A stretch of 64,000 bases of DNA, taken from positions 4,159-68,158 of the forward strand of contig DASSXJ010000113.1 in assembly GCA_035703895.1 (NCBI GenBank). Reading direction: 5' to 3'. Shown here piece by piece: positions 1,112-33,102 of this stretch. Position 1 is the first letter of the stretch. Every line of letters starts with the position of its first letter. Source of the DNA: a bacterium. GTDB lineage: Bacteria; Sysuimicrobiota; Sysuimicrobiia; Sysuimicrobiales; Segetimicrobiaceae. The notes under the pieces were generated by a model that was not told the DNA's origin, made no database searches, and was given only the letters and a program-made list of their open reading frames with translations. The translations under genes and the position numbers were made by a program.

Positions 1112-2005
1112 ATGACGCCAGGAGATCCAACACCGGTTTCCCGGACAGCGGCACCCATGCGGGTTCGGCGAGGGCCGATGTCTAGGCTGCTCCGGAACCG
1201 GGCGGCCGTGGGGGGAGGTGTGGTCGTGCTGGCCGCGGCTCTGGTGGGCCTTCTGGCCCCGGTCGTCGCTCCGTATGATCCGCTTCGGGTAGACTTGTCC
1301 GCGGCTTGGGACCACCCGGACGCCCGGCACCTTCTGGGCGCCGACGAGCTCGGCCGCGACATTTTGAGTCGGATCATCTACGGCAGCCGTACTTCTCTGG
1401 AAATCGCCGTCGTCGGCGTGACCATCGCCCTCGCCCTCGCATTGCTGATCGGGCCGCCGGCCGGATTCTACGGCGGGTGGCTCGATCGCCTGCTCATGCG
1501 ACTGGTGGATGTGATGCTCGCGTTTCCGAGCATCCTGCTTGCGATCGTCATCATCGCGATCATCAGGCCGGGCGTCCTCAGCACCATGCTCGCAGTTGGC
1601 ATCTCCTCGGTCCCGACCTTCGCGCGCCTCGCCAGAGGGTCGACGCTCTCACTGCGCAACGAGGAGTACGTCACGGCGGCACGCGCCGTTGGGGCCACCG
1701 ATGCGCACATCATCGGCGCCCACATCCTCCCCAACCTCGTGACGCCACTTATCGTCCAGTCGACACTTCGGCTCAGCACGATGGTACTGACAGCGGCGGG
1801 GTTGTCGTTCATCGGCCTCGGCGTGCAGCCGCCCTTCCCCGAGTGGGGGACGATGATGAGTCAGGCGCGGTCGGCGATCCGCGAGGCGCCGTTTGGAATC
1901 CTCTTCCCGGGGTTGGCGCTGATGCTTGTGGTGCTTGGCTTTAACCTACTTGGTGACGGCCTACGCGATGCGCTTGATCCGCGCGACGTCAAGCAGGACG
2001 TCTAG
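1112..2005 (+). CDS. ABC transporter permease (DppC/OppC-like)
   Basis: 297-aa ORF with the DppC-type motif LGADELGRDILSRIIYGSRTSL and C-terminus ...GDGLRDALDPR. The start is uncertain (ATG at 1112, 1157 or 1178). It overlaps the convergent downstream gene by 17 nt. Confidence 0.85.
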   Translation: MTPGDPTPVSRTAAPMRVRRGPMSRLLRNRAAVGGGVVVLAAALVGLLAPVVAPYDPLRVDLSAAWDHPDARHLLGADELGRDILSRIIYGSRTSLEIAVVGVTIALALALLIGPPAGFYGGWLDRLLMRLVDVMLAFPSILLAIVIIAIIRPGVLSTMLAVGISSVPTFARLARGSTLSLRNEEYVTAARAVGATDAHIIGAHILPNLVTPLIVQSTLRLSTMVLTAAGLSFIGLGVQPPFPEWGTMMSQARSAIREAPFGILFPGLALMLVVLGFNLLGDGLRDALDPRDVKQDV

Positions 2006-10852: not shown

Positions 10853-10923
10853 TGCGCCACCCCTCGTTAGCGCTGCATCCGAGCAGGGTACAGAATCGCG
10901 GAAAGGACACCCACGGGTTATAT

Positions 10924-10937
10924 AGTATCAGAATACT
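10924..10937. promoter_or_regulatory. inverted repeat AGTAT-N4-ATACT next to an AT-rich -10-like element (TTATATAGT)
   Basis: Seen directly at 10918-10937, about 55 nt upstream of the small ORF 10990. It is a candidate operator in the divergent promoter region between the Zn-ribbon ORF and the peptide ORF. Confidence 0.3.
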
Positions 10938-10989
10938 CGGCCGTTCGGCGGTACTTAACAGACACATCACATTGCTGGAGGTGTGGCAG

Positions 10990-11145
10990 ATGAGAGGGTT
11001 TCTGTCATTCGTCGTAGGGGCTTGCTTCGTGGTCTTCGCGAGTATCGTGGTTGTTCCCGGTACGGTGTCCCAGCCTCACCCCGCAGGGCTCGGAGGAATC
11101 CATGTGGTTCTGGTTCCTGCCGGAGATGACCCCGGCGGCCACTAG
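10990..11145 (+). CDS. small pre-peptide-like ORF (51 aa) with a signal-peptide/TM-like N-terminus
   Basis: MRGFLSFVVGACFVVFASIVVVPGTVSQPHPAGLGGIHVVLVPAGDDPGGH. GGAGGTG SD 6 nt upstream of the ATG. It lies 220 nt upstream of the XRE-TPR regulator on the same strand. Its codon usage is atypical for this genome. Confidence 0.4.
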   Translation: MRGFLSFVVGACFVVFASIVVVPGTVSQPHPAGLGGIHVVLVPAGDDPGGH

Positions 11146-11364
11146 GTGAGGACCACCAACGGCTCGGTAACAACATGAGGTAACGTCAACGCCGAGCGGC
11201 CGTTTTCAAGCCTTGATCGCACTGCTGTGGTTCCTAGACTCGGCCGGTCCCTCGGCCGGGCTGAAGAATGCGCGGAATAAAGGTATTGGGTCAGAAAAAC
11301 CCGAAAGTGAGCAACCCAAACCACCGGAATTACGAAGGTAAACCCGTTCTGAGCGAGGATTCCA

Positions 11365-12675
11365 ATGGCTTTGCTTGGCGACCGAATACGAAGCCGACGC
11401 AGGGAACTGGGCCTCACGCAATCCAAGCTCGGGGGCGGGGAGCTGACGAAGGGCTTTATCAGCCTCGTTGAGACAGGGCGGACTAAACCCTCGATTGAGA
11501 CCTTGATGCTGCTGGCCGGCCGGCTCCAGAAACCGGTCGGATACTTCCTCGAAGAGGACACGCCGTTAAGCCGGAAGGCACTTCGGATCATGATCGCGTC
11601 CGCCTGGGTCGCGCTGAAACGTGCGGAATTTACACAGGCGGCGGAGTCCTTCGAACAGGCACGCGGTATCGCCCGGAAACACGACGAGGCGGTTGAAGCG
11701 GAGTGCTGTATCGGGTTGGGATCGGCGCTTGCGGGCCTCCGGCAGCTTGATCTTGCACGACGAAACGTCCAACGTGGCAAAGAGTTGGCTGAGGCCACGG
11801 GGAACTCTCAACTGCTTGTGAGGGTCAATCACGTCTTCGGGCTGATAGAGTTCTACGCACGCAATTTTTCAGGCGCCCGGCAGTATTTTCTTGAGGGGCA
11901 TCGCCTCCTGCGTGAGGTCGGCGACCCCGATCTCTCCCTTGCCGGAGAGTTCCTGTTGAAGATCGGGATCACTCACGAAGAGATCGGTGACTATGATGAG
12001 GCGACCCGCTGGTATCAAAAAGCCCTGAGCGCGCTTGAGCCTACGGAGGATCTCGAGCGCATCGGGATGATTCACGTCCGACTCGGCGTGACCTACCGCG
12101 AGAGTGGCCATCACGACATCGCGTTGGCGCAACTGAATCGGGCCGAGCACATTTTCGAGTTACGAAACTCTCTTCGCCTGCTGGCGCAAGCGCGCAACAG
12201 CATCGGGATTACGCTCCTGGAGCAAGGGAAGACGAGTGAAGCACTGATTCAGCTGCGCAGCAGCTTGAATATCAAGGAGATGGTGGGGGACGACCCCGGA
12301 CGGGCGCGAACGCTCACCGAGATCGCCCGGGCACTCATTGCGAAGGGTGCCTTCGAGGAGGCGGGAGACGCCCTCACGCAGGCTGAACGTCTCACGAAGA
12401 AGATTCGGGATGCGACTGAGGGGGCCAGGATCACGCTGGTGCGCGCGCGGCTTTTCCGCGCCATGGGGCGGCTGACCGAGGCGGTCAAGCACTACAAGGA
12501 GGCGGTCACCTCGTTCGATAAGCTGAGCATGCGCACGTATCTTGGAACCGCCTGCAACGAGTTGGGAAACGTCCTCATCAGGCAAAAACGTCGTTCAGAA
12601 GCGGCCCCGTACCTCGCCCGCGCCCTACGATCATTGCAGCCTCTTCACGGACCCCGTTCGACGGAAATGGTGTAG
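11365..12675 (+). CDS. XRE-family helix-turn-helix transcriptional regulator with C-terminal TPR repeat domain (RNPP/Rgg-like architecture)
   Basis: N-terminal HTH_XRE: LGDRIRSRRRELGLTQSKLG...GFISLVETGRTKPSIETLMLLAGRLQKPVGYFL. The remaining ~370 aa contain several TPR-like helical repeats (e.g. EEAIELYQKAL-type segments such as EATRWYQKALSAL and EAVKHYKEAVTSF). GAGGA RBS. Confidence 0.85.
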   Translation: MALLGDRIRSRRRELGLTQSKLGGGELTKGFISLVETGRTKPSIETLMLLAGRLQKPVGYFLEEDTPLSRKALRIMIASAWVALKRAEFTQAAESFEQARGIARKHDEAVEAECCIGLGSALAGLRQLDLARRNVQRGKELAEATGNSQLLVRVNHVFGLIEFYARNFSGARQYFLEGHRLLREVGDPDLSLAGEFLLKIGITHEEIGDYDEATRWYQKALSALEPTEDLERIGMIHVRLGVTYRESGHHDIALAQLNRAEHIFELRNSLRLLAQARNSIGITLLEQGKTSEALIQLRSSLNIKEMVGDDPGRARTLTEIARALIAKGAFEEAGDALTQAERLTKKIRDATEGARITLVRARLFRAMGRLTEAVKHYKEAVTSFDKLSMRTYLGTACNELGNVLIRQKRRSEAAPYLARALRSLQPLHGPRSTEMV

Positions 12676-12689
12676 CGAGCTTCTCCGCC

Positions 12690-14414
12690 CTAGAGCCCCA
12701 GGGCTCCCACCAACCACAAAGCCGCTTGACCGCGCGAGAGTTCGCTGCTCGGCCAATCGAGGGTGTTCCCTACAACATTCTCGATATCTCGGCGGTTTTG
12801 ATCGGTGAGTAAGTCGTTGGGGCGGAGGGTCATGTCATCGAACCCGCTCATGACGCCGCTCACGCCGAGCATATTTGCGGCGACAAAGAGGTCCCTGTTA
12901 TCGAACGAGATATCAGCCCACCAGTAAAGTGGGACTCCGACGTCGAGCAATGCGTGCTGATAGTCCCTCAACAACGCGGCCGTCTGCCACACGCTCCGCG
13001 GCTGCACACCCCGCTTGACGCAGAACGCGGCAAGCGCTCCGGCCGACTCGCCGATATTCCATTCGACGGGATGCAAGCGATAGGCACCGTTGGTGACATG
13101 CGTGACTCCGATGTTCTTGCACGAAGCAAGCAGGTTCGTCACCCGAACTGGGATGAGCGCCCCTACCGGGATCTGAAACGGTTTCACATTCAGAAACATT
13201 TGGGGCATCCCGACCGCGCGAAGCCCGTGGATGTCCATACCCCCGTAGTGGCCGATGCCGCACGAGTCGGCAAAGAGCTTCCCTCGGGGACCAGGATTGT
13301 AACTCGCGTCGACATCTTGCTGCACGATCGTCTTGAGCGCCTGAATGCGACGGGACTCCCGGACATACGGAGCCCGCGCGGTACCGTCCGGCGTACCGAA
13401 GAGGTCCCCGCGCGGCTTGAGTTCGGGGAACCCAGTTTGGTTAGGAATGTCGTCGCGTGGACATTCCGTCTGCAACCAATAGAGGTAGCCGAGCGAGGCC
13501 TGCCGTGCGGCTTCAATGATGGCTTGATCCGCAGTTGCGTTGCCGGTAGGAATGGTGGCTCCCTGATAATCGTTGCTGCCTGTGTTGATCATGCTCAGAT
13601 CGTACGGCAGCGCAGGATCATCAAAATTCCCCGCAGCGATGAAGCGCCGATAGCTCCACATATCCTTCCCAGGAACAAACATCGTGCTAATATAACCGTC
13701 AACGATCGTATAGTTCTGGTTCGCCTTAAGCTCGTCGTAGTTGGCCGGCCTTGCGATGGTGTACCTCTCCCCGTGTGGCCTGCGCTCGAGCGCTACCGGA
13801 ATGGTGATCGGTTGAATCCAGTCTGGGCGCGGCTGATCCGGAGCCCCCGGTTCTCCGGTCTGCGCGCGGCTTTCTGCCCCTAGAACATGCTCGACGCTTG
13901 CCAGCGGCAGCAGCTCGCCCAGATCGGTCGCATCCAGGAAAAATTTCGCAACATAACGGGTTGAAACGCCGTTGGTGTCGGTCGTCGAAAGCCCCCGAAC
14001 TGTATCGTCCTGAACGTCGGCACCGGTTACCCGCGTTTGCGACCGAAAGTGGAGATTCGGTGCTGCGGTCAGCTGCTGATGCAGCACGTCATGTCCGACG
14101 CGGGGATGCATCGAAAAACCTGGGTACCCTCCCCCGGGGTTCAGCGCCGGTTGACTGCGGCCTGGGGCCGACAATTGAAAGTTGTTCCGATAGAAGAGCC
14201 GAACCAAGTGGCGGAACTCGCGGTAGGATGCGGTGCTGCCAACCGTTTCGACGTATCGGTTTTCGTCTGGCTTCGTGACCCCCTGTGCCGTGAACTGGCC
14301 ACCGACCCAATCTGTCGCTTCGAGCAAACACACGCTTGCCCCCGTGCTCGCAGCTCGCAAGGCGGCCGCAACGCCACCGAGACTGGCACCGACAATCACG
14401 ACGTCGTAGCTCAA
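12690..14414 (-). CDS. FAD-dependent oxidoreductase (PF12831-like)
   Basis: N-terminal dinucleotide-binding motif YDVVIVGASLGGVAAALRAASTGASVCLLE. 574 aa. Same strand as, and immediately downstream of, the DMFase-like gene. Confidence 0.85.
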   Translation of the reverse strand: MSYDVVIVGASLGGVAAALRAASTGASVCLLEATDWVGGQFTAQGVTKPDENRYVETVGSTASYREFRHLVRLFYRNNFQLSAPGRSQPALNPGGGYPGFSMHPRVGHDVLHQQLTAAPNLHFRSQTRVTGADVQDDTVRGLSTTDTNGVSTRYVAKFFLDATDLGELLPLASVEHVLGAESRAQTGEPGAPDQPRPDWIQPITIPVALERRPHGERYTIARPANYDELKANQNYTIVDGYISTMFVPGKDMWSYRRFIAAGNFDDPALPYDLSMINTGSNDYQGATIPTGNATADQAIIEAARQASLGYLYWLQTECPRDDIPNQTGFPELKPRGDLFGTPDGTARAPYVRESRRIQALKTIVQQDVDASYNPGPRGKLFADSCGIGHYGGMDIHGLRAVGMPQMFLNVKPFQIPVGALIPVRVTNLLASCKNIGVTHVTNGAYRLHPVEWNIGESAGALAAFCVKRGVQPRSVWQTAALLRDYQHALLDVGVPLYWWADISFDNRDLFVAANMLGVSGVMSGFDDMTLRPNDLLTDQNRRDIENVVGNTLDWPSSELSRGQAALWLVGALGL

Positions 14415-14471
14415 CTCAGCTATGGGTATGCCCCCGCCGCGGGGTGACCTCCAGTAGGGATGCCGTGATTC

Positions 14472-16313
14472 TCACCGGCGATCGACCCAATCCGGATGCC
14501 CCGGAATTGCCATCACGGCAACGTTGTCAAACCAGGCCCGAAGACCGCCCGCGACCTGGATCTTCACGCGTGCCGGGAACACGGACTTGTCGCCTTGCAC
14601 CGATCCCACCGCGAACAGGTATTCCCAGTTTCCACTGCCGGTGTGTGCGGCCGTGACAAAATCAGCCCACGTATCGGTGGTCTGCAGCCGGATCGTCGCA
14701 CCCGGCGCGTACGCCTTGGCCCAACAGCCGACGCCGTACGTGGTCTCCGCCGCGCACAGGAGGCCTGGCTGGCTGATCCACGTCTCGCCCGCGGCCGCGT
14801 CAACCTTCAGGCTGAAATGGCCACCTCCATCATTACGGACGTTGGTGAAGTTGGGATCCGGCACGGCGCGCTCGGCGGACACGCGGCCCGCGCCGTCGAG
14901 CGACCAGCCGACGGGACCGGCGTTGATCCATTGCTCGAAGCCCGAGTTGGCGATCTCGAGGCCCGGGGGCCACGTGCCGGAGAGCCCGCGCAGTAGGTTT
15001 TTCGTGATCTGATCGACCGGGGTCCACGTCGCGTTGAGGCTGAGACCCCCGGCCCAGTTCACCGTCGCGGCGGTAAACACGGTGCCGTGCCGCTGATAGA
15101 TTCCCATCGTCGCCTGGCCCCGCTGTGCGTCCGGTGGGGCCCAATCGGATAGGTCTGCCGTCGCCAAGACGACGAAGTTCTTCGGCGTGCCGTCAGAGCC
15201 GACCACTTTGGGGGGAACGCTCCCCGCCGCGATGACCGCGGCGTCGGTTTCATAGCCGATGATGGTGTCGTCGACACTCGCGCCTTTGCCGAATTCATCG
15301 CCATCCGCCACCCCTGCGCCCCGGAACACCCAGTGAGCGGCGTTCGTTACGCGGTATCCTCGGTAGCGCTGCGCTGGGACGATCGGGTGGGGATCCCACA
15401 TGCCGGCTCCGGTCCGATAACTCACCCCTGTCATCGAGTTCTCCGGACGCAGCACCGGCGTCTCGTGCCAGTGGACGGTAATCCGCTCCGGAGGTTGTCG
15501 CTGGGGGTCTTGGATGTGCCCGGGGTTGATGACGGCATCCGTTTCTTTGTAGCACACCATGATGCGGCCACCGTTGCTGAAGTCAAACCGGATCTGCCAC
15601 CAGCACGTGTTTCCGCAGAAGAAGCCCACGTTTCCGCCGTTCCCGATAAATGCCTCTACCTGGTCACGCATCTCCCAGGACCAGTACTCGTCATGGCCGA
15701 AGCTGAGCAGCAATCGATAGTTCTCGAGCAGCCGTGGATTCGTATGCAGGTCCATCGCCGAGCAATACTCGAGCTCGAATCCGTTGGCTTCAGCCCACCG
15801 CAGAAACGGCAGCTGGTAGCTCTCGTAGAGGTCGAGGTCAGCGTACGGGCGATCGAACGAGATCCTGGGGGCAAACGGACTGCTGTACAGGCTCCGACCG
15901 CCCCACGCATTGTATGCCTGCGTAGTCGTGTCATTGATCTTGACGAGGATCTTGGACCTCGCGCCGGGCGCGGCGGATCGTACCACGAACGGAATCCACG
16001 CCACCTGGTCGGCGGAGATGAGCTTCCCGACGTAGTATCCGCTGGTCCAGGGCGAAGGGATCGTGATCTGGCACCCCGCGGCCGGCGGCCAGCTGCAGCC
16101 GGTGGCGGCGAGACGCGCATCATCCTGGGCGCCTGGCGTGAACGCGGTTCCGTTGCGTGTCTCGACGAGCCGATCGCTCAGCCCGCGGCGGTAGATCTCC
16201 AGCGTGAAGCCATTATGCGTTTGGTCGGCGCGAACGCAGAAATTGACAGTGTCCCCGGGTGCCGCAGAGGTAAGGGATGCGTACCCTTCGATTGCCGCCA
16301 TATCTGCCTCCAT
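14472..16313 (-). CDS. N,N-dimethylformamidase large-subunit-like protein with a C-terminal CBM4/9-like beta-sandwich
   Basis: 613 aa. The central region (KINDTTTQAYNAWGGRSLY...FGHDEYWSWEMRD...VGFFCGNTCWWQIRF) resembles the widespread DmfA2-like family. The last ~150 aa (ANSGFEQW...GWSLDG...AWFDNVAV) look like a carbohydrate-binding-module-type jelly roll. This is a judgement from memory. Confidence 0.65.
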   Translation of the reverse strand: MEADMAAIEGYASLTSAAPGDTVNFCVRADQTHNGFTLEIYRRGLSDRLVETRNGTAFTPGAQDDARLAATGCSWPPAAGCQITIPSPWTSGYYVGKLISADQVAWIPFVVRSAAPGARSKILVKINDTTTQAYNAWGGRSLYSSPFAPRISFDRPYADLDLYESYQLPFLRWAEANGFELEYCSAMDLHTNPRLLENYRLLLSFGHDEYWSWEMRDQVEAFIGNGGNVGFFCGNTCWWQIRFDFSNGGRIMVCYKETDAVINPGHIQDPQRQPPERITVHWHETPVLRPENSMTGVSYRTGAGMWDPHPIVPAQRYRGYRVTNAAHWVFRGAGVADGDEFGKGASVDDTIIGYETDAAVIAAGSVPPKVVGSDGTPKNFVVLATADLSDWAPPDAQRGQATMGIYQRHGTVFTAATVNWAGGLSLNATWTPVDQITKNLLRGLSGTWPPGLEIANSGFEQWINAGPVGWSLDGAGRVSAERAVPDPNFTNVRNDGGGHFSLKVDAAAGETWISQPGLLCAAETTYGVGCWAKAYAPGATIRLQTTDTWADFVTAAHTGSGNWEYLFAVGSVQGDKSVFPARVKIQVAGGLRAWFDNVAVMAIPGHPDWVDRR

Positions 16314-16336
16314 CTTTGCGGGGAGCCGAATCTAGG

Positions 16337-16849
16337 TCACTTGACATGCCCGAGCTCCCTGGTCCAGTCGGTGGAGATGATGCGCTGCGCTTCCGCGAGG
16401 GTCATCAAACCGCCGCACACCTGCTGGTGGAGGTAGTTCTCGACTTTGTCCTTCTCGTGCGCGCCCGGAGTCGGCGAGTATGGTTCGGGCCAGAGATTCC
16501 GCGGACTCGTCGGGTTGCCGCCAAGTTCGAGTGAGATGAGGTGATCAAGCTCGTATGCGCTGGCTGATCCCCTTTCGCCGTACGCGGCCATGAGCCGCGT
16601 CTTCAGTGGGTTCGTGTAACTCACGGGAGGCCGGATCGTCTTCGTGTAGCCCTGGACGCAAATCGTCGTCTTGATGTTTGCTTGGGTCACGCTCGGGTTG
16701 AGGGCGCCCGGCGTGCAGCCGCGGTCCGGGAGCGGCCCGCTCACCACGCAGTGCGCTGGGACGCTTCCCGCGCTGAATTGGCCGGCGAGCGTGGCCGCGG
16801 TGAGCACGGCTGCGGCGATCGCCGCGTGGTGCGGAGAAACGCGCGCCAT
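16337..16849 (-). CDS. secreted protein with HNH/His-Me-finger-like motif (possible extracellular nuclease), hypothetical
   Basis: Signal peptide MARVSPHHAAIAAAVLTAATLAG. The motif YELDHLISLELGGNPTSPRNLWP resembles the DH...GG...N core of HNH nucleases but lacks the terminal Cys/His pair. It is 4 nt downstream of the membrane protein gene on the same strand. Confidence 0.6.
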   Translation of the reverse strand: MARVSPHHAAIAAAVLTAATLAGQFSAGSVPAHCVVSGPLPDRGCTPGALNPSVTQANIKTTICVQGYTKTIRPPVSYTNPLKTRLMAAYGERGSASAYELDHLISLELGGNPTSPRNLWPEPYSPTPGAHEKDKVENYLHQQVCGGLMTLAEAQRIISTDWTRELGHVK

Positions 16850-16852
16850 GGC

Positions 16853-17692
16853 CTATGTCGCCTGCACCCGCTGCCGACGCGTCTTGGGCTTGGGGCCCGC
16901 CGAGCGAATGTTGGAAAAGCGGTTGAGGAGATCGAACCAGAAGGGCGCGCCGAGCGATACGGCGAAGACGGTGATGGCGAGGCCTGCGATCTTCATCACC
17001 CAATCGGCGAGCGTCGCCGGGTTAACCGTCCAGCCGATGGGCAGCGCGAACTCGGAGAGCGTGTTCACGGCGTCCTCAAGACGGGTGGCGCTTGCCTGTT
17101 GCGCCGCACCAGTCAGCGCGGCTCGGATGCCCTGTTCTTGCCAGAGCGTGGACGCTATGGCCACGCTGTCGACGCCCAAGAGGGCCACCACGAATGCGCC
17201 GATGGCAAACGTCACGAGCTGGATCTGGCGCTTGTACACGCCGCTTAGGCGATCCATGGTGCCGTCATACCAATCCTCAACCGCCTTGCGCTTCTCCTCG
17301 ATGCCACCTTGGGCGTTGGACAGGACGCTGCTGAGCGCATCTTTCGTTGATCCGTCGGGGAGTTTCGTGACGCTCTCTTCGATTGCGGCGAGGCTTCGCG
17401 TGCCCTTCGGCGGCACGAGTGCGTCGAAGAGCGCCTGCGCGAAGAGATCGCTCGGAATGTACGAAGGGCGGCGTCCGGGTTTCCCGGTGAGTCGCGCCAC
17501 GAGCGGATGCGCGAGGACGCGATCGGCGAGGGCCGGATCGGCGAGGAGATTCCTGATCCCCTCCTCGAGCAGCGTGGCGCGCCAGCTGAAGATCCCCCCC
17601 AGAAGCTCAGTGACGTGCGAAACAATGACGCTCAGCACGAAGTAGATGAAGATCAGACCGATCGCGACCTCGACGGACGCCGAGCCGAACAT
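16853..17692 (-). CDS. hypothetical integral membrane protein
   Basis: Hydrophobic helices at the N-terminus (VEVAIGLIFIYFVLSVIV), in the middle (LVTFAIGAFVVALLGV) and at the C-terminus (IAGLAITVFAVSLGAPFWF). Start is ATG 17692 (AGGGGGAA SD) or GTG 17806 (AAGGGAAG SD). Probably co-transcribed with 16337..16849. Confidence 0.6.
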   Translation of the reverse strand: MFGSASVEVAIGLIFIYFVLSVIVSHVTELLGGIFSWRATLLEEGIRNLLADPALADRVLAHPLVARLTGKPGRRPSYIPSDLFAQALFDALVPPKGTRSLAAIEESVTKLPDGSTKDALSSVLSNAQGGIEEKRKAVEDWYDGTMDRLSGVYKRQIQLVTFAIGAFVVALLGVDSVAIASTLWQEQGIRAALTGAAQQASATRLEDAVNTLSEFALPIGWTVNPATLADWVMKIAGLAITVFAVSLGAPFWFDLLNRFSNIRSAGPKPKTRRQRVQAT

Positions 17693-18120
17693 TCCATTCC
17701 CCCTAGCGGCCCGATCGAACCATTCGGCCGGCCCGGGACGGGCCCACCGCGATCTCCGAGCGCTTTCTACCGTTGGACGAAGTTTCGAGTGGGGGTTCAG
17801 TCCCACCCTATCGCTTCCCTTCTCAGGCGGTAGGTTGCGGGCCCGGGACTACGGGAGGTGGCGCGGGGCTTTTGGCATCCGATCTGCCGCCAATTTGCAC
17901 CAAATCGACCCTCTGTGCGATACTCTGGCGCAAAAGAGGCCCGTTTCAGTGAGATCGAAGGGATCGAGGGCCAGCTTCGGCGGGTGTCATGTGCCGATGA
18001 TGACCGCAATTGTGAAATCGGCATCGGGCCTGAGGGATGACTGTCTTATCTTGTGAAACCTCATGGTCTCGTGGTGTTCGATCTGGACGGCACAAAGCAG
18101 CATCATGACAAAGGCCCTGC

Positions 18121-19230
18121 ATGCTCCTTGATCTCCCGTTTAGGCTTCGAGACCATTCGGGTTTGGTACGGGTGACGGTTGAGCCGAACTCGGACCCCAT
18201 CCGCTGGGGCTGTGGGACGTATCTTGCGCATGATCAACTGAATGCCGCGCTTGGGTTCCCCGTCTGCATAGCGACCGTCGAGTATTCCGGCGAGGGCTAT
18301 CTGAGCCTCTTGGGATGGACGCAGATCGTCCGCAGTGGGCCGCCTGGCTGCGTGAGTTGGGAACTCGATCCGCTCGCAGTACTGAACGGCCTCGATGTAC
18401 CATTTGCCTTCTTCGGGTACACGCCCACACTGTTTGATGCGCCGGCCCGACAGGATCGATCAGTTGCGCTTGACTGGTTGGCGCACAGCTTCCTATGTGC
18501 CGTTCCTAGCCCGCGCGGCCCACGCATGGTTACCCCCCTCGTCGCGTTCTGTTGGGGTTTCCAATTGCGCGAAGGTAAGGTATCGATCGAAGGACCGTCG
18601 GCACTTGCTCTCAATGCATGGGACCAGCACGTGGGAATCTTACGCCGCACCTGTCCCAGTTGGACATTCTCCCCCGCGTCGATCGAGGGTGAAGTCCCTC
18701 AGGGCGATGAGGTGCCGGGAACCCGGGCCACGACCTTGTTCGGACCGCCACCGGCAACACTCCAAGTGTTGTTGGATGATCGCCAAGAACACGACTTCCC
18801 CAGCGTGACTCGCGTCTTAGGCGGACTGACGTCCACGCAAGCGTTCGCCGTGCGGCTTGGGGTGCCATACACGATTGCCCAAATTGTGGCCCACATGCTC
18901 GCCAACATGCGGTTCAACTTGGAGTTAATCTATGCTCAGGATCCAGCGTGCGTCGAGAAACCCGGTGAGCTTTGGCCCGAGGTGGCCGCGGATGAGTGGC
19001 CCGTCCTCAGCGACGAGTTTATCGCGACCCTCGAGGCCCTGAAGCACATTGCGAAGACGGACGATTTGGATCGAATCGTGCACCCGACGACGGCCAACGA
19101 ACCTGCATGGACCGTGGGCTACAAACTCGCGTGCAGTGTGGCGAAGCACAATGCGTACCACTTGGGCCAGATCGTGGCGCTACGACGACTCATCGGTGCC
19201 TGGAGGGATCCGGCGGGCCCAGCAAGATAG
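18121..19230 (+). CDS. hypothetical protein with C-terminal DinB_2/DinB-like four-helix-bundle domain
   Basis: 369 aa. The C-terminal ~150 aa (TIAQIVAHMLANMRFNLELI...AKHNAYHLGQIVALRRL) fit the DinB/YfiT-like metal-dependent family. The N-terminal 200 aa are unassigned. A TTGCAC-N18-GATACT promoter-like element sits about 230 nt upstream. Confidence 0.6.
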   Translation: MLLDLPFRLRDHSGLVRVTVEPNSDPIRWGCGTYLAHDQLNAALGFPVCIATVEYSGEGYLSLLGWTQIVRSGPPGCVSWELDPLAVLNGLDVPFAFFGYTPTLFDAPARQDRSVALDWLAHSFLCAVPSPRGPRMVTPLVAFCWGFQLREGKVSIEGPSALALNAWDQHVGILRRTCPSWTFSPASIEGEVPQGDEVPGTRATTLFGPPPATLQVLLDDRQEHDFPSVTRVLGGLTSTQAFAVRLGVPYTIAQIVAHMLANMRFNLELIYAQDPACVEKPGELWPEVAADEWPVLSDEFIATLEALKHIAKTDDLDRIVHPTTANEPAWTVGYKLACSVAKHNAYHLGQIVALRRLIGAWRDPAGPAR

Positions 19231-19530
19231 CCGAGCACGGCCGTGATAGCCGTTTGAGGTCAAAGTACGCGCTTAAGAATCCGGGAGCGTTCGTCGCAAT
19301 AGCCAGAAGAGCGTCCGGCTCTCTACCCTCGCTCGATGCATCCCCAGTTTTTCTAGTATCCGGAGCGAGCCCACATTGTCATCATCACATCTTGCGTCGG
19401 CCCGATTAGCTGCCCTGCTGTAACCGTGCCGACATCAATCCTGTCAGGTGCCTGATAGATCACCAGCATCGAGATCAGGTATAGATTGGTGCGTAGCCGC
19501 CCCGCACATTTGCATCCCCGGAGGTGACAG

Positions 19531-19704
19531 GTGAATAGAGTTCTGGCGATCCTCATCCTGGCGTTACTCTCACTGGTCGCTCTGTCGGCACCCGGTCATG
19601 CAGGCCAGGATGGACCGGGTCAGTCGGTCAAGGTAGGAACGCTCCCATCCCACCCCATAGCTCCGCCACCAATTCCGTTCGGCCAGGACGGACCTGGCCA
19701 GTAA
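19531..19704 (+). CDS. small secreted proline-rich peptide (57 aa) with GQDGPGQ at both ends of the predicted mature part
   Basis: GTG start preceded by GGAGGTGA (4 nt spacer). Translation VNRVLAILILALLSLVALSAPGHA|GQDGPGQSVKVGTLPSHPIAPPPIPFGQDGPGQ, stop TAA at 19702-19704. It has a classic n-h-c signal peptide with a GHA|G cleavage site. It is absent from the ORF track because it is shorter than 60 aa. Confidence 0.45.
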   Translation: MNRVLAILILALLSLVALSAPGHAGQDGPGQSVKVGTLPSHPIAPPPIPFGQDGPGQ

Positions 19705-19780
19705 ATCCAGGTTCCTGTTATCCTGATTCGACGCTCCAACGGCATTCGCGGGGCGGCTACCGCGACGCCAGACGTCCCGA

Positions 19781-24092: not shown

Positions 24093-25321
24093 GCACCCCC
24101 GCTCACCAGGATCTCGCCGTCGGCCGGCATGCCCGGCTTGGCGAGGCCGGTCGCGCCCTTGAGTTGCAGCTTGACGCCAACGACCTGCTTGACGCGGTCC
24201 TGGCGAAAGTAGGTGTTTTCCGGCGTGAACGTGGCCTGAGGATCGATGCGGAGGACCAAGGCGTCGACGGCCCGATTCGGATTCGAATCGAGGTACACGT
24301 GCGCCGGCTGCCCGATCTTGACCTTGCCGATCTGCCCCTCAGGGATAAACCCACGCAGATAGACCTGGCTCAGGTCGAGGAGCGTGACGATTGACGTCCC
24401 AGCGGTCACGACCTCGCCCGGCTCGGCGGAGCGCGTGATCACCGTTCCGCCGAAGGGGGCGCGAACCACGAGATCCTGCCGGTTGGCCTCCGCCTGCGCC
24501 AACGCCGCACGGGCCTGCGCCACCTGGGCGGTGGCGCTCCCGATCGTCGCGTGCTGCTGGACGATCTGCTTCTCTACGGCGGCCATCTGGGCGCCGCGGA
24601 TCCCAGGATTGGCGAGGTTGGCACGGGACGCCGTCAAGGCACCCTTCGCGGCCGCCACGCGCCGCTGTGCCGCCGCGAGCGCCGCCCCCTGCGCCTCGGC
24701 CGCCGTGACGGCCTGCACACGCTGCTGTTCCGATACGGCGCCCTGCTGGGCGAGCCGTGTGAACGCGTTCCGGTTAAAAACCGCATTTTCGTAGGCGGCG
24801 CGCTGTTGGGCCACGTCGGCTTCGGCCGCGGCCAGGTCCGCCTCGCCCTGCCGTACCCGGCCCTCGGCGTCGGTCACCGCTTGTGCCATGAGGAGCTGAT
24901 TCTGTTGCAGCTGCTGCTGGAGTACCGCGATCTGGTCGTTGGCGGCCTGCGCCCGCGCCTCCGCATCCCGCAAGGATGCCCGGGCCTGGTCCTCTTGGGC
25001 CCGGAGTTGTACGTCATCGAGAATCGCGATGACGTCCCCCGCCCGCACGCTGTCGCCTTCGCGCACCCGGACGTCTAAGATCTTCCCCGCCACCTTCGGG
25101 GCGATCGCTGAGTCGTCGCCCTCGATCCGGCCACTGAGCGTGACGATGCTGTCCGGCACCGGAGGCACGGCAAAGTACGTGCGCCAGACGTAGACGCCGA
25201 GGCCGGCGAGCACCACGAGCGCAATGAGCCCGAGCGACCGCCGACGCGCGTGCGGCCGCGCCGCGGAGGGGGCGACCGGTGGCGCCTGCGCGGGAGCGTG
25301 AGCAGCGTCCTGGGCCGTCAT
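24056..25321 (-). CDS. HlyD-family secretion/efflux periplasmic adaptor protein
   Basis: N-terminal TM anchor (LGLIALVVLAGLGVYVW), a long coiled-coil region rich in A/Q/E, and a C-terminal beta-barrel region (VYLRGFIPEGQIGKVKIGQPA). Start chosen at ATG 25321, overlapping the TetR stop. The upstream part of the ORF to 25522 is unlikely. Confidence 0.85.
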   Translation of the reverse strand: MTAQDAAHAPAQAPPVAPSAARPHARRRSLGLIALVVLAGLGVYVWRTYFAVPPVPDSIVTLSGRIEGDDSAIAPKVAGKILDVRVREGDSVRAGDVIAILDDVQLRAQEDQARASLRDAEARAQAANDQIAVLQQQLQQNQLLMAQAVTDAEGRVRQGEADLAAAEADVAQQRAAYENAVFNRNAFTRLAQQGAVSEQQRVQAVTAAEAQGAALAAAQRRVAAAKGALTASRANLANPGIRGAQMAAVEKQIVQQHATIGSATAQVAQARAALAQAEANRQDLVVRAPFGGTVITRSAEPGEVVTAGTSIVTLLDLSQVYLRGFIPEGQIGKVKIGQPAHVYLDSNPNRAVDALVLRIDPQATFTPENTYFRQDRVKQVVGVKLQLKGATGLAKPGMPADGEILVSGGAWPPGWKGWHSQ

Positions 25322-26037
25322 GTCCGCCTCCGAACGGGTATGGACGACGCGCGCCCACGCCAGGACTTGAACGCCTGGAGATATGCCAGCGAAAAGTCGG
25401 CGATGTGATCCGCGATCCGGTCCACCTGCGCAGGCGTCATCTTCAATTCCGGCCACAACCTCGCCAGAATCGGGCGCGCCACGACGTAGTGGACGATCTG
25501 CCCGATGACGCTGTGCGTGCACAGCCGCGTGGTGTCGTGATCGCGCGGCAGCCCCAGGATGGCTCCGACGATGTCCCTGAGGCGATCGTACATCGGCCGC
25601 AGGGCCTCATTCACGACGCGGGACATGGCCGGGGTAGGCTGCGCGAATTCATGGGCCATCAACAGCACGAGCCGCGCCGGCCGATCTCCCTCCCCCACGC
25701 CCCGAAGCCTGAGTTTGATCAAGCGCCTGAGGGCCTGCTCGGGCGGGACGTTCTGGCCCGCCACCGAGCGCATGGGCTCGAGCTGATCCCCACGCACCGC
25801 GTTCCGCAGCACCTCGGTATACAGTCCCAACTTGTCTCCGAAGTGATAGTTGACGGCCGCGATGTTGGCCCCCGCCCGCGCGCAAATCTCGCGGACGGTT
25901 GCGTCGTGGAACCCGCGCTCCGCGAAGACCGCGCCGGCGGCATCGAGCAGCTTCGCGTGGGTAGGATCGCCGGCGCGTGCCTTCGCCGGCTCCCCCTCTG
26001 GGGATCGCCTCGCCTGAAGATTCGGCATTTCAAACAC
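25318..26037 (-). CDS. TetR/AcrR-family transcriptional regulator
   Basis: The N-terminal HTH LLDAAGAVFAERGFHDATVREICARAGANIAAVNYHFGDK is the TetR_N signature. First gene of the efflux operon. Confidence 0.85.
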   Translation of the reverse strand: MFEMPNLQARRSPEGEPAKARAGDPTHAKLLDAAGAVFAERGFHDATVREICARAGANIAAVNYHFGDKLGLYTEVLRNAVRGDQLEPMRSVAGQNVPPEQALRRLIKLRLRGVGEGDRPARLVLLMAHEFAQPTPAMSRVVNEALRPMYDRLRDIVGAILGLPRDHDTTRLCTHSVIGQIVHYVVARPILARLWPELKMTPAQVDRIADHIADFSLAYLQAFKSWRGRASSIPVRRRT

Positions 26038-31031: not shown

Positions 31032-32630
31032 TCACCGGCTCCGCCACGTGGGGATGGAACTGAAAAACGCGAACAGCGAGTTGACGCCCCCGGGCAGCGT
31101 CAGCGTCTTTTTCACTCCCCAGATGACGTCCGGCCGCACCGTCATCACCCGCGGGACGTCCCGCAGCACCAGCTCCTGGATCTGATCGTAGAGCGCTTTC
31201 TGCCGCGTCCGGTCGCGGGTGGCATTGGCCTCATCGAGAAGCCGGTCCATCTCCGGATTATTGTACCCGCTGATCTGCGCGACGGACCCGGTGCTCTTGA
31301 AGCCCGTCTCCAGTTCGCTCTGCGGCGGGAAGAGGAGGTTGAACCAGGCGATGCCCACGAGCTCGATTGGAGCGCCCGGGACGAAGTAGCGGCCGAAGAA
31401 GTCGCCCCGCTCGATGGCCTGCACGTCGATCTCAATGCCGACCGCCCGGAGGTACTGCTGGATCAGCAGCGCCTGATTCTGAAAATCCTTGCCGGCGAGA
31501 AACGCGTACTTGACTTTGAAGCGCTGCCCCCCCTTCTGGAGGATGCCGTCCGGTCCCGGCGTCCATCCGGCTTCCGCGAGCAGCTGTTTCGCCTTCGCCG
31601 GGTCGTACGTGTAGCCTTTGAGCTGTTTATCGTATTGCCACAGGCTTGGATGAATCGGGCTCTGGACCGTCGTCCCCAGCCCCCGATACAGCGCCCTGAG
31701 CATCTCGTCGCGATTGACCGCATAGGCCATGGCCTGCCGCGCCCGCGGGTCCTGAAAGACCGGCAATTTCACGTTCATGGTAAACCAGTAGTTCGTGTCC
31801 CCCGGCATGCGCAGCACGCGCACACGAGGGTCGGTCCGGAAGCTGTCATAGGCTTCAGGAATGATGCGGCCGGCATCGATGTTCCCGGCGCGCAACTCGG
31901 CGATCACCGTCGCATCCTCGGGAATGAGCTTCAGCACGACGCGCTTCAGGGTCGGAACGCCTCCCCAGTAGTCGGGGGACGCCTCGAAGGTCATGCTTTC
32001 CTTCTCACGCCACTCCACCAAGCGGTAGGGGCCGGCCCCGATCGGCTTTCGCACGAACGGCGCCTCTTGCAGACGGGCGACGTCAAGATTGAGGAGCGCG
32101 TGTTCGGGAATGATCGGCGCCGTCCCGATCTGCTCGTAGAAGTACGGGTACGGCCGGTTGAGGATGAACCGGATCGCGCGTGGTGTCAGCACGGTGATGC
32201 CGCTCACCGATGCGGCCTTGCCGGCCTTGTATTCTTGCGCACCCGCGATCTCCAGGAGGGCGGGTGACGTTGTCGGATACTTGGCGTGCAGGTAGAGCTC
32301 GTAGGTGAATTTGACGTCCCGGGCCGTGACCGGGGTGCCGTCCTGGAATTTGGCCGCCCGGAGCGTCATCACGTAGGTCTTGCCGTCGGGGGAGGCCGGG
32401 TATTTCTCGGCCAGGTGCCCGGAGACATTCCCCTGACCGTCCACGGCCGTCAGCGAGTCGTTGAGCAAGAGACTGACATAGGACGTCACCGCTTCGGTGC
32501 TGCCCAAAATGCGGATCGGGAGCCCCCAAATGGAGACGATGGCCTGCGAGGTGCCTTGGCCGAGCGCGGGAACCCTCGCCCCGCACGCCACCACGAGCGC
32601 TAACAGCAGAACACCGATCCGTTTGCTCAT
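31032..32630 (-). CDS. ABC transporter substrate-binding protein, family 5 (peptide/nickel/opine type)
   Basis: Start at ATG 32630 (MSKRIGVLLLALVVACGARVPALGQG, a signal peptide). The longer ORF to 32969 is Arg/Pro-rich and unlikely. SBP_bac_5-like length and segments. Confidence 0.85.
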   Translation of the reverse strand: MSKRIGVLLLALVVACGARVPALGQGTSQAIVSIWGLPIRILGSTEAVTSYVSLLLNDSLTAVDGQGNVSGHLAEKYPASPDGKTYVMTLRAAKFQDGTPVTARDVKFTYELYLHAKYPTTSPALLEIAGAQEYKAGKAASVSGITVLTPRAIRFILNRPYPYFYEQIGTAPIIPEHALLNLDVARLQEAPFVRKPIGAGPYRLVEWREKESMTFEASPDYWGGVPTLKRVVLKLIPEDATVIAELRAGNIDAGRIIPEAYDSFRTDPRVRVLRMPGDTNYWFTMNVKLPVFQDPRARQAMAYAVNRDEMLRALYRGLGTTVQSPIHPSLWQYDKQLKGYTYDPAKAKQLLAEAGWTPGPDGILQKGGQRFKVKYAFLAGKDFQNQALLIQQYLRAVGIEIDVQAIERGDFFGRYFVPGAPIELVGIAWFNLLFPPQSELETGFKSTGSVAQISGYNNPEMDRLLDEANATRDRTRQKALYDQIQELVLRDVPRVMTVRPDVIWGVKKTLTLPGGVNSLFAFFSSIPTWRSR

Positions 32631-32694
32631 CGAAGTCCCCCTTCTCGCTCGAGCCGGTGTCGCCCCTTCACAGCTCGGGCCTGTACCTTCCTCG

Positions 32695-33102
32695 TCACGT
32701 TTTGAAGACCCCGCGTCCGATGGCCACGAGCGTGCCGTCTTCGCCCACCACCTCGATGTCGGCAACCGCAAGAGACCGCCCGGATTTGACCGCGCGGGCG
32801 GTCGCGGTGAGGGCGCCTTGTGGCGCCGGGCGCAGGTAGTCCACGCGCAGGTCGACCGTGGGGACATCGTACCCCACAGCGGCAATGATCGCGAAGTCAC
32901 CGGCGGTATCGATGAGGGTGGCGATTGCCCCCCCGTGGACATACCGGCCCGTCTCGTCGTCTCCCGCAAACAGGTCCTCTCGGAACGGCATGCGGACGAC
33001 GACCTCGCTGGGGCTCGCCCGCACCATCTCCAGCCCCAGCAACCGATGGAAGGGCGACCGGCGAAGGACGTCCGCGAGGGTCTCGAGCGGCAGGCGTGAC
33101 AC
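32695..33102 (-). CDS. PaaI-family (hotdog-fold) thioesterase
   Basis: The ...YVHGGAIATLIDTAGDFAI... motif is typical of 4HBT/PaaI thioesterases. 135 aa. Confidence 0.8.
   Translation of the reverse strand: MSRLPLETLADVLRRSPFHRLLGLEMVRASPSEVVVRMPFREDLFAGDDETGRYVHGGAIATLIDTAGDFAIIAAVGYDVPTVDLRVDYLRPAPQGALTATARAVKSGRSLAVADIEVVGEDGTLVAIGRGVFKT

What the first reader, a model, noticed from the sequence alone, without database searches (positions are those of the whole stretch)
19500..19710. Unannotated 57-aa secreted, proline-rich peptide gene with terminal GQDGPGQ repeats and a near-perfect SD, convergent on the TetR-HlyD-ABC exporter operon
The ORF track misses it because it is shorter than 60 aa. 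GTG at 19531 sits 4 nt after GGAGGTGA. The product has a textbook signal peptide (MNRVLAILILALLSLVALSAPGHA). The 33-aa predicted mature part is GQDGPGQ-SVKVGTLPSHPIAPPPIPFG-QDGPGQ, bracketed by the same heptapeptide and rich in proline.

It lies in a low-GC intergenic island between a DinB-like gene and the 3' end of a five-gene efflux operon. Small secreted peptides like this can be signalling peptides, bacteriocin-like products or cell-wall-associated factors. The exact sequence symmetry is unusual.
Basis: seen in the sequence. Interest (0 to 1): 0.6.

Follow-up and report, generated by a model that had tools for sequence, protein, structure and literature searches.

The report
Conserved small secreted peptide gene
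This is a real, previously uncharacterised gene for a small secreted peptide with the same seven residues at both ends; it looks like the peptide pheromone precursors of Bacillus, but it comes from an uncultivated soil lineage and its function is not proven.

Summary
The 57-aa ORF at 19531-19704(+) is real and is a gene. Ten distinct homologues (57-58 aa) exist among about 15 billion proteins. In the two conserved motifs, 18 of 20 third codon positions vary against 0 first and 1 second position (dN/dS 0.004), so selection acts on the protein. The product has a variable Sec-type signal peptide followed by a predicted-disordered 33-aa part, GQDGPGQSVKV–variable Pro-rich core–PFGQDGPGQ.

The gene sits in a cassette of about 365 bp with its own conserved, non-coding promoter/operator region. 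A 13-nt inverted repeat brackets the ORF.

The link to the TetR-HlyD-ABC exporter is not supported, because that neighbourhood occurs only in this lineage.

Two near-identical contigs lack 6.7 kb of the window. There the gene lies 121 nt downstream of an HTH-TPR regulator (11365-12675) whose model best matches RapI, other Rap proteins and NprR. Another lineage has a different HTH-TPR gene beside it. A second unannotated secreted-peptide gene (10990-11145) forms a conserved module with the regulator.

Best reading, with confidence about 0.35: a Phr/NprX-like pro-peptide carrying a duplicated signal unit. No receptor is co-conserved with it, so membership of the RRNPP family is not established.

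The parts
19531..19704 (+). Peptide B gene: 57-aa pre-pro-peptide, GTG start, TAA stop
   Evidence: ORF confirmed. Homologues. dN/dS is 0.18 overall and 0.004 in the two motifs.
19520..19527 (+). Shine-Dalgarno GGAGGTGA, 3 nt before the start codon
   Evidence: Read. Conserved in position in almost all homologous loci.
19531..19602 (+). Signal-peptide coding part (aa 1-24, predicted SPase I cut after G-H-A)
   Evidence: The sequence varies but stays hydrophobic in all 10 members, with small residues at -3/-1. AlphaFold models a helix at residues 2-18. dN/dS 0.39.
19603..19635 (+). N-terminal conserved motif GQDGPGQSVKV (first GQDGPGQ copy at 19603-19623)
   Evidence: GQDGPGQSVKV is invariant in 8 sequences with zero non-synonymous differences although pS = 0.57. 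In all 10 sequences the invariant core is GQDxxGQS.
19636..19674 (+). Variable Pro-rich core (GTLPSHPIAPPPI)
   Evidence: dN/dS 0.25.
19675..19701 (+). C-terminal conserved motif PFGQDGPGQ (second GQDGPGQ copy at 19681-19701)
   Evidence: FGQDxxGQ is invariant in 10 sequences. pN = 0.012 although pS = 0.77.
19407..19492 (.). Conserved non-coding promoter/operator region. It holds TGT-N10-ACA (19419-19434), TGTCA-N6-TGATA (19442-19457), the palindrome TGATAGATCA (19453-19462) and the -10-like TATAGAT (19480-19486).
   Evidence: The blocks are conserved in the window, L002, L003, L005, L006 and L009. Variable columns show no 3-nt periodicity (14/25, 14/26, 14/23). No convincing RNA fold was found. 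Each motif occurs once in the window. That these are regulator-binding sites is inferred.
19493..19505 (+). 5' arm GTAGCCGCCCCGC of the 13-nt inverted repeat that brackets the ORF. It starts 6 nt after the -10-like box.
   Evidence: pair I3. The minimum-free-energy fold pairs the two ends (z -2.6). Double changes that keep the pairing occur in L002 and L008.
19748..19760 (+). 3' arm GCGGGGCGGCTAC. Homology with L002 ends here.
   Evidence: BLASTN match covers 19395-19759.
11365..12675 (+). HTH_3 + TPR regulator (436 aa), NprR/Rap-like. It lies directly upstream of peptide B in close relatives.
10990..11145 (+). Peptide A: a second unannotated 51-aa secreted-peptide gene with SD GGAGGTG at 10977-10983. 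It forms a conserved module with the regulator (10918-12675).
   Evidence: ORF. Homologues. Module boundaries. Its own bracketing inverted repeat is at 10938-10950 and 11190-11202.
12677..19406 (.). 6.73-kb stretch that separates the regulator from peptide B in this window. It is absent from two near-identical contigs, and the junction shows TAGC microhomology.
   Evidence: L011 and L012 join window position 12676 directly to 19407.

Best explanation
Shown. 19531-19704 encodes a translated 57-aa pre-pro-peptide under strong purifying selection. Conserved regulatory DNA lies upstream of it.

Inferred from sequence rules. The peptide is exported by Sec and cut by signal peptidase I after residue 24. 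This releases a disordered 33-aa peptide: GQDGPGQSVKV, then a variable Pro-rich core, then PFGQDGPGQ. The gene appears to be a self-contained cassette of about 365 bp. Its promoter has no obvious -35 box but carries conserved palindromic sites, which suggests dependence on an activator. The mRNA ends can pair through a 13-nt inverted repeat.

Inferred, and the least certain step. The pro-peptide is a cell-cell signalling precursor of the RRNPP/Phr kind. Extracellular proteases would release the two identical conserved units (GQDGPGQ, possibly with flanking residues), as with the duplicated pheromones of Phr105. The units would be re-imported by an oligopeptide permease and bind the TPR groove of a cytoplasmic HTH-TPR regulator. 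The candidate regulator is the NprR/Rap-like gene at 11365-12675 in this lineage and an HTH_31-TPR protein in the L001/L008 lineage.

Confidence that it is a real secreted-peptide gene is about 0.9. Confidence in the signalling mechanism is about 0.35.
For: Coding:
- There are 10 distinct homologues of 57-58 aa.
- In the two motifs, 18 of 20 third codon positions vary against 0 first and 1 second position. dN/dS is 0.004, and synonymous sites are saturated.
- The start codon and SD are conserved.

Secretion and disorder:
- The signal peptide is variable but stays hydrophobic, and the conserved block starts exactly at the predicted cut.
- AlphaFold gives a helix at 2-18 and coil with pLDDT 56-66 for the rest.

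Resemblance to a pheromone precursor:
- The pattern of two identical, highly conserved units (one internal, one C-terminal) with a variable stretch between them is what PMC11343458 reports for the Phr105 family.
- PMC9765709 notes many propeptides with multiple peptides, and some receptors with several propeptide genes.

Receptor context:
- In L011 and L012, which are 98-99.6% identical to the window, the gene lies 121 nt downstream of the 436-aa HTH_3-TPR protein on the same strand.
- In L001, L008 and L010 a different HTH_31-TPR protein is the divergent neighbour. It is collinear with the first regulator family by hhalign (82%, E 1e-5).
- The compact layout meets all five RRNPP_detector criteria of PMC10075063.
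- The only other ORF of this kind in the 64 kb (peptide A) is in a conserved module with the regulator.
- Opp-type permease and binding-protein genes are present in the window.
Against: - No receptor is co-conserved with the peptide. Orthologous regulators at 85% identity (L013, L014) and 53% identity (L015-L021) have no copy next to them.
- L003, L005, L006 and L009 show no HTH-TPR gene within the 120-750 nt of upstream sequence available.
- L002 shares at least 12 nt to the left of the L011/L012 junction with the window: the BLASTN match starts at 19395. By eye, weak similarity runs roughly 20 nt further. The compact regulator-to-peptide layout may therefore be a recent microhomology deletion rather than an old pairing.
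- Peptide A, not B, travels with the regulator.
- The putative signal units are invariant across lineages whose adjacent TPR proteins are barely related. Known pheromones usually co-diversify with their receptors.
- The envelope type of the host is unknown. If it is diderm, the peptide would be periplasmic.
- There are no expression, processing or binding data.
Confidence: 0.35

Rival explanations
1. It is a secreted or periplasmic small peptide with a non-signalling role. Examples are an envelope-associated or structural factor, or a cross-linking or binding partner that uses its two identical ends and the invariant Lys. It could also be an output gene regulated by the neighbouring regulator/peptide A pair. 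Proximity to HTH-TPR genes would then be coincidental or purely regulatory.
For: - The motifs are invariant across diverged hosts of 50-65% GC whose neighbours differ. This fits a conserved, generic partner better than a private pheromone code.
- The gene is an autonomous cassette with its own conserved promoter.
- Peptide A is the element co-inherited with the regulator.
- In the compact layout, B sits where a regulated target gene could sit.
Against: - The mature part is predicted to be disordered.
- It matches no known structural or envelope family in Pfam, NCBIfam or PHROGs.
- The pattern of a duplicated unit with a variable spacer, and two independent adjacencies to HTH-TPR genes, would be left unexplained.
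Confidence: 0.3
2. It is a RiPP-type precursor. The two GQDGPGQ blocks would be recognition sequences flanking a variable core that is excised, and possibly cyclised, by enzymes encoded elsewhere.
For: - Conserved flanks around a variable Pro-rich core.
- The family is rare and lineage-restricted.
Against: - No modification, protease or cyclase genes are conserved beside it in any locus.
- A Sec signal peptide is unusual for bacterial RiPP precursors (my own knowledge).
- SVKV, next to the first block, and F, before the second, are also invariant, so the 'core' is not cleanly delimited.
Confidence: 0.08
3. It is a bacteriocin-like peptide or another substrate of the convergent TetR-HlyD-ABC exporter.
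For: The gene is convergent with the ABC-2/ABC/HlyD operon in the window and in L012.
Against: - The exporter neighbourhood is absent from every other lineage that has the peptide.
- The leader is Sec-type, not double-glycine.
- There is no C39 peptidase domain in the ABC ATPase and no immunity gene.
- The mature peptide is slightly acidic and Gly/Pro-rich, unlike known cationic or Cys-containing bacteriocins (sequence reading plus my own knowledge).
Confidence: 0.04
4. It is not a gene: either a chance ORF or a non-coding DNA or RNA element.
For: - It is short.
- A 13-nt inverted repeat brackets it.
- The second GQDGPGQ copy is itself a near-palindrome at the DNA level (GGCCAGG-acgga-CCTGGCC).
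Against: - Third-position-only variation in the motifs, with dN/dS 0.004.
- Conserved length, start codon and SD.
- The palindrome is not kept in the homologues: codon choices differ.
- There is no Rfam match.
Confidence: 0.02

Closest known systems
Rap-Phr systems with duplicated pheromones (Phr105 and Phr3T of Bacillus phages; PMC11343458)
   Same: - A small Sec-exported pro-peptide.
- An identical conserved unit present twice, once internally and once at the C-terminus, with an unconserved stretch between the copies.
   Different: - The candidate unit here is 7 residues (GQDGPGQ) and sits directly at the signal-peptidase site.
- The receptor carries an HTH domain, which Rap proteins lack.
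- The host is not a Bacillus and probably not a member of Bacillota.
- There is no conserved receptor-peptide pairing, and no processing or binding data exist.
NprR-NprX of the Bacillus cereus group
   Same: - The receptor architecture: an N-terminal HTH followed by about 9 TPRs, 436 aa here. PMC9765709 describes NprR as HTH + 3HB + 9 TPR.
- In the compact layout the peptide gene lies directly downstream on the same strand.
- JGI names several orthologues NprR.
   Different: - Sequence similarity to NprR is negligible. The PDB sequence search matches only generic TPRs, plus PlcR and ComR HTH domains at E of about 0.007.
- The regulator family is slowly evolving and widespread. Most orthologues examined have no such peptide next to them.
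- In this window the two genes are 6.9 kb apart.
PlcR-PapR and AimR-AimP (other RRNPP pairs with the peptide gene downstream of the receptor)
   Same: The computational signature of five criteria (small peptide, Sec signal, receptor of 250-500 aa, TPRs, adjacency) is met by L011 and L012. In the window itself it is met by peptide A plus the regulator.
   Different: - Pheromones of those systems diversify with their receptors, whereas here the motifs are invariant.

Membership tests
RRNPP(A) peptide quorum-sensing pair (criteria of RRNPP_detector, PMC10075063) | Pro-peptide is small (10-100 aa) | tested here: met
   57 aa. Homologues are 57-58 aa.
RRNPP(A) peptide quorum-sensing pair | Pro-peptide carries a Sec/SPI signal peptide | tested here: inconclusive
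   By inspection there is a basic n-region, a hydrophobic h-region of about 16 residues, and small residues at -3/-1 in all 10 members. AlphaFold models a helix at 2-18. SignalP itself could not be run.
RRNPP(A) peptide quorum-sensing pair | Receptor of 250-500 aa with TPRs, plus an HTH for the regulator subfamilies | tested here: met
   [not shown]
RRNPP(A) peptide quorum-sensing pair | Receptor and pro-peptide genes are direct neighbours | tested here: not met
   In this window 6.86 kb and four ORFs lie between them. The criterion is met in the near-identical contigs L011 and L012 (121 nt apart) and, with a different TPR protein, in L001, L008 and L010.
RRNPP(A) peptide quorum-sensing pair | Receptor and peptide are inherited together across genomes | tested here: not met
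   Regulator orthologues in L013, L014 and L015-L021 lack peptide B. B occurs without a visible TPR neighbour in L003, L005, L006 and L009. Peptide A, not B, shares the conserved module 10918-12675.
RRNPP(A) peptide quorum-sensing pair | The mature peptide is released, re-imported by Opp and binds the TPR groove | not testable with these tools
   This needs peptidomics and binding assays. Only Opp-type genes were noted in the window.
Duplicated-pheromone Phr pro-peptides (Phr105 type) | The same unit occurs internally and at the C-terminus and is more conserved than the stretch between the copies | tested here: met
   GQDxxGQ is present twice and invariant in all 10 sequences, while the core is variable. 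dN/dS is 0.004 in the motifs and 0.25 in the core. The pattern described in PMC11343458 is quoted.
ABC-exported class II bacteriocin or double-glycine peptide | Double-glycine leader, a dedicated ABC transporter with a C39 peptidase, and an immunity gene, conserved together | tested here: not met
   The leader is Sec-type. The ABC ATPase shows only ABC_tran and DrrA_C domains. The exporter neighbourhood is not conserved in other loci.
RiPP precursor | Adjacent, co-conserved tailoring or processing enzymes | tested here: not met
   No such genes recur beside the peptide in any of the 9 loci. The contigs are short, so distant genes cannot be excluded.
Known protein or RNA families (Pfam, NCBIfam, PHROGs, Rfam) | Significant profile match | tested here: not met
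   The peptide gave no hit in Pfam, NCBIfam or PHROGs. The region gave no Rfam hit.

The most novel reading that the evidence does not exclude
Peptide B, together with peptide A at 10990-11145, would be a pro-peptide of an RRNPP-type peptide quorum-sensing system built on a cytoplasmic NprR/Rap-like receptor. The host would be an uncultivated soil lineage outside Bacillota. The regulator family includes members from Candidatus Segetimicrobium, phylum Ca. Sysuimicrobiota/CSP1-3. The pheromone unit GQDGPGQ would be duplicated and unusually invariant. This would extend a communication mechanism that the two surveys read here describe only in Firmicutes and their mobile elements to a new phylum. 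It would also give a synthetic peptide with which to probe an uncultured group.
Probability: 0.25. Interest if true: 0.75.

Novelty: new variant of a known kind. Interest (0 to 1): 0.55.

Why it matters
If the reading is right, Sec-exported peptide pheromones sensed by HTH-TPR receptors are not confined to Firmicutes. The two surveys read here (PMC9765709, PMC10075063) searched or found them only in Firmicutes and their mobile elements. The locus also gives concrete candidates that can be synthesised: GQDGPGQ or FGQDGPGQ from peptide B, and the PAGLGG or PAGDDPGGH ends of peptide A. It gives a receptor that can be cloned, from a phylum with no cultured members.

Even if the function differs, this is a clean example of a strongly selected small ORF that standard annotation can skip. 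No gene was called at its position in L012. It also has an unusual feature shared with its sister gene: the mRNA 5' and 3' ends are complementary over 13 nt.

Tried and rejected
1. The species-representative genome scan for the family found only a Micromonospora hit (L004). That hit lies antisense inside an MFS transporter gene and is spurious.
2. Two metagenome-contig scans, one with the alignment and one with a back-translated GQDGPGQSVKV pattern, added only L010, a duplicate of the L008 type.
3. The viral-contig scan gave L022, a low-complexity GQDGPGQDD repeat inside a 654-aa phage protein. It is not a homologue. The plasmid tblastn found nothing.
4. The profile HMM search of 1.84 billion representatives added only two members. 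The family is truly rare, or it is under-called.
5. I tested whether the conserved upstream region is a leader RNA or riboswitch. There is no Rfam hit, and RNAalifold found only 1 compensatory pair with a positive covariation term. Rejected.
6. I tested whether the upstream region encodes the minus-strand ORF 19353-19556. Similarity stops after about 20 residues and the substitutions are not 3-periodic. Rejected.
7. I tested whether the A and B cassettes are homologous at the DNA level. The alignment is at background level. They share organisation, not sequence.
8. I tested whether the 13-nt inverted repeat is significant on its own. Fourteen perfect inverted repeats of at least 11 nt with 150-400 nt spacing occur in the window, including a 15-mer. 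Its weight therefore rests on the double changes that keep the pairing in L002 and L008 and on the parallel repeat around gene A. It is absent in L001, L003, L005, L006 and L009.
9. I looked for a Crp-family regulator as the promoter's factor. Crp-family genes lie beside the peptide in L005 and L009, but no homologue is in the window. Left as a lead.
10. Searches for papers reporting RRNPP systems outside Firmicutes returned nothing relevant.

Full report
**1.

The ORF is at 19531-19704(+). GGAGGTGA lies at 19520-19527, which is 3 nt before the start rather than 4. The heptapeptide GQDGPGQ is encoded at 19603-19623 and again at 19681-19701. The two copies differ at three synonymous positions.

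The 'low-GC island' is only mild. GC is 55-60% against a window mean of 65%.

The convergent operon is as described. It has two ABC-2 permeases, a double ABC ATPase and HlyD by Pfam, plus a TetR-like ORF at 25318-26037(-) recognised by reading. The 'DinB-like' upstream ORF has only sub-threshold matches.

I screened the whole window for ORFs of 30-95 aa with a strong SD, a basic N-terminus and a hydrophobic h-region. Exactly two passed: this one and 10990-11145.

**2. It is a gene under selection as a protein**

A search of 5.8 billion clusters found seven homologues, all 58 aa and 59-91% identical. A profile search of 1.84 billion representatives added two more.

- The signal peptide varies but stays hydrophobic.
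- GQDGPGQSVKV follows it directly.
- PFGQDGPGQ sits at the C-terminus.
- Both motifs are nearly invariant, and GQDxxGQS...FGQDxxGQ is invariant in all ten sequences.

In the coding DNA of eight loci the motifs use many synonymous codons. Of 20 motif codons, 18 vary at the third position, 0 at the first and 1 at the second. dN/dS is 0.004 in the motifs, 0.25 in the core, 0.39 in the signal peptide and 0.18 overall. Synonymous sites are saturated.

The DNA near-palindrome in the second motif (GGCCAGG-acgga-CCTGGCC) is not kept in the homologues. Pfam, NCBIfam, PHROGs and Rfam give no match. AlphaFold, on the 10-sequence alignment, gives a helix for residues 2-18 and low-confidence coil for the rest. 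That fits a cleaved signal peptide and a disordered 33-aa product.

**3. The gene is a self-contained cassette**

BLASTN between the window and L002, whose peptide is 91% identical, covers 19395-19759 at 87%. The flanks are unrelated.

*Upstream region.* About 110 nt upstream of the start are conserved in the window, L002, L003, L005, L006 and L009:
- TGT-N10-ACA (19419-19434)
- TGTCA-N6-TGATA (19442-19457)
- the palindrome TGATAGATCA (19453-19462)
- a -10-like TATAGAT (19480-19486)

These are shown. The variable columns show no 3-nt periodicity. RNAalifold finds no supported structure. I therefore read the region as promoter and operator DNA, with no obvious -35 box, which suggests dependence on an activator. 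This is an inference. Crp-family genes lie next to the peptide in L005 and L009, but none is in this window.

*Bracketing repeat.* A perfect 13-nt inverted repeat brackets the ORF, at 19493-19505 and 19748-19760. It begins 6 nt after the -10-like box, and homology with L002 ends at its 3' arm. The RNA minimum-free-energy fold pairs the two ends (z -2.6). L002 (ATAGCC.../...GGCTAT) and L008 (TGGCC/GGCCA) carry changes on both arms that keep the pairing. The repeat is not found in L001, L003, L005, L006 or L009. Inverted repeats of 11-15 nt at such spacing are not rare in this window. It is therefore a supported but not universal feature.

**4. Context: the exporter link fails and an HTH-TPR link appears**

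Neighbours of the peptide gene differ between loci:
- L003, L006, L007: an FAA hydrolase
- L002: a GNAT gene
- L005, L009: a Crp-family gene
- L001, L008, L010: an HTH-TPR protein

The TetR-HlyD-ABC operon is beside it only in the window lineage.

The exact 57-aa product is also encoded on a Logan contig, L011. An ENA forest-soil contig, L012, is 98-99% identical to the window. Both contigs join window position 12676 directly to 19407, through TAGC microhomology. They lack the 6.73 kb from 12677 to 19406.

In those contigs the peptide gene lies 121 nt downstream of the ORF at window 11365-12675, on the same strand. That ORF is a 436-aa protein with HTH_3 and TPR domains.
- Its AlphaFold model has pLDDT 91.
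- By Foldseek, the highest TM-scores are for RapI (0.82) and apo NprR (0.80).
- JGI names several orthologues 'quorum sensing regulator NprR'.

In L001, L008 and L010 the divergent neighbour is a different protein of 340-372 aa with HTH_31 and TPR domains. hhalign aligns it collinearly with the first family (probability 82%, E 1e-5). BLASTP finds no similarity.

**5. A sister gene**

219 nt upstream of the regulator lies a second unannotated small gene, 10990-11145(+). It follows the SD GGAGGTG and encodes MRGFLSFVVGACFVVFASIVVVPGTVSQPHPAGLGGIHVVLVPAGDDPGGH. It has four or five homologues, with invariant AGLG and VLVPAGDD..GGH blocks.

It has its own bracketing inverted repeat. In L013 this is a perfect 13-mer. 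In the window the arms are at 10938-10950 and 11190-11202, with one G-U pair.

Homology between the window and L013/L014, whose regulator is 85% identical, covers exactly 10918-12675. Peptide A plus the regulator is therefore the conserved two-gene module. Peptide B is absent from those loci.

More distant regulator orthologues at 53% identity lie next to tuf, a tRNA gene and an HTH_5 gene. They have neither peptide.

**6. Interpretation**

The five computational RRNPP criteria are a small peptide, a Sec signal, a receptor of 250-500 aa, TPRs and adjacency (PMC10075063). Peptide B plus the regulator meets them in L011 and L012. Peptide A plus the regulator meets them in this window. Peptide B does not meet adjacency here.

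The internal pattern of B is two identical conserved units, one internal and one C-terminal, with an unconserved spacer. This is the pattern reported for duplicated Phr pro-peptides such as Phr105 (PMC11343458). Multiple peptides per pro-peptide, and several pro-peptide genes per receptor, are also documented (PMC9765709). A Phr/NprX-like signalling precursor is therefore my best mechanistic reading.

Against this reading:
- B is not co-inherited with any receptor.
- L002 shares at least 12 nt to the left of the deletion junction with the window, since the BLASTN match starts at 19395. By eye, weak similarity runs roughly 20 nt further. The compact layout may therefore be a recent deletion.
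- The motifs are invariant even though the neighbouring TPR proteins differ.
- The host's envelope type is unknown. Two papers on the phylum say nothing about it.

I put the signalling mechanism at about 0.35, a non-signalling secreted-peptide role at about 0.30, and a RiPP-like precursor at about 0.08. The exporter-substrate or bacteriocin idea is at about 0.04 and 'not a gene' at about 0.02.

**7. Host and novelty**

The regulator family comprises at least 100 clusters. Cluster members at 51% identity come from Candidatus Segetimicrobium genomatis, phylum Ca. Sysuimicrobiota (formerly CSP1-3), kingdom Bacillati. The window probably comes from this or a related uncultivated soil lineage. This rests on one gene family only.

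The two RRNPP surveys I read searched or found these systems only in Firmicutes and their mobile elements. My searches found no report from other phyla. The peptide family is unnamed, and only ten sequences are known. I class the finding as a new variant of a known kind, with the caveat that membership of RRNPP is not established.

Noticed in passing
window 12677-19406: A 6.73-kb stretch is absent from two near-identical contigs, L011 (Logan) and L012 (ENA forest soil). Both join position 12676 to 19407 through TAGC microhomology. The stretch holds an FAD-dependent oxidoreductase, a DMFA2_C protein, a 317-aa unknown ORF, an MST/DinB-like ORF and what looks like a GNAT C-terminal remnant. No mobility genes were seen. 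The direction of the event (insertion or deletion) is not settled. The few bases that L002 shares to the left of the junction favour a deletion in the compact form.
   Followed up: partly
window 10990-11145 (+), SD at 10977-10983: A second unannotated 51-aa secreted-peptide gene (peptide A) has invariant AGLG and VLVPAGDD..GGH blocks. It lies 219 nt upstream of the HTH-TPR regulator. The stretch 10918-12675 (A plus the regulator) is conserved as a unit in L013 and L014 at 79% nucleotide identity, with unrelated flanks.
   Followed up: partly
window 10938-10950 / 11190-11202 and 19493-19505 / 19748-19760; L013 179-191 / 434-446: Both small peptide genes are bracketed by a 13-nt inverted repeat that starts a few nucleotides after a TATAG(T)AT box. 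The mRNA 5' and 3' ends are therefore predicted to pair. The window copy around gene A has a G-U pair where L013 has A-U. The feature is not universal in the peptide B family, and its function (mRNA stability?) is untested.
   Followed up: partly
[not shown]
   Followed up: partly
L001 3300-3607; L008 1073-1658: Between the divergent HTH_31-TPR gene and peptide B, both loci keep the palindrome ATGCAAAT-N14-ATTTGCAT, a candidate operator. L008 has an extra stretch of about 280 nt with an 87-aa ORF. The octamer ATTTGCAT also occurs in the 5' UTR of peptide B in the window (19511-19518) and in L002.
   Followed up: no
L005 1-156 (+); L009 788-1441 (-): Nearly identical Crp-family (cNMP_binding + HTH_Crp_2) genes lie next to peptide B, but on opposite sides in the two loci. 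The peptide B promoter carries CRP/FNR-like 16-mers (TGTNN-N6-CGACA and TGTYA-N6-TGATA). No homologue of this Crp protein is in the window.
   Followed up: partly
window 19273-19374 (-); L002 657-1118 (-): The short ORF ...LRILEKLGMHRARVE... reads like the C-terminal end of a GNAT acetyltransferase and is probably a remnant. L002 has an intact GNAT gene downstream of its peptide B copy. tblastn of the L002 GNAT against the window gave no hit, so any relation is unproven.
   Followed up: partly
L022 4296-6260 (IMG/VR contig): A 654-aa phage protein contains a low-complexity repeat, (A/E)QDGQDGPGQDD(E/K)AQDGPGAPGE. It matches the GQDGPGQ pattern by chance and is not related to the peptide family.
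   Followed up: yes
window 9-2005 and 31032-32969: The window holds Opp/Dpp-type ABC permease genes (BPD_transp_1, OppC_N) and an SBP_bac_5 solute-binding protein. This is the kind of importer that RRNPP pheromones use, but such genes are common and no link was tested.
   Followed up: no
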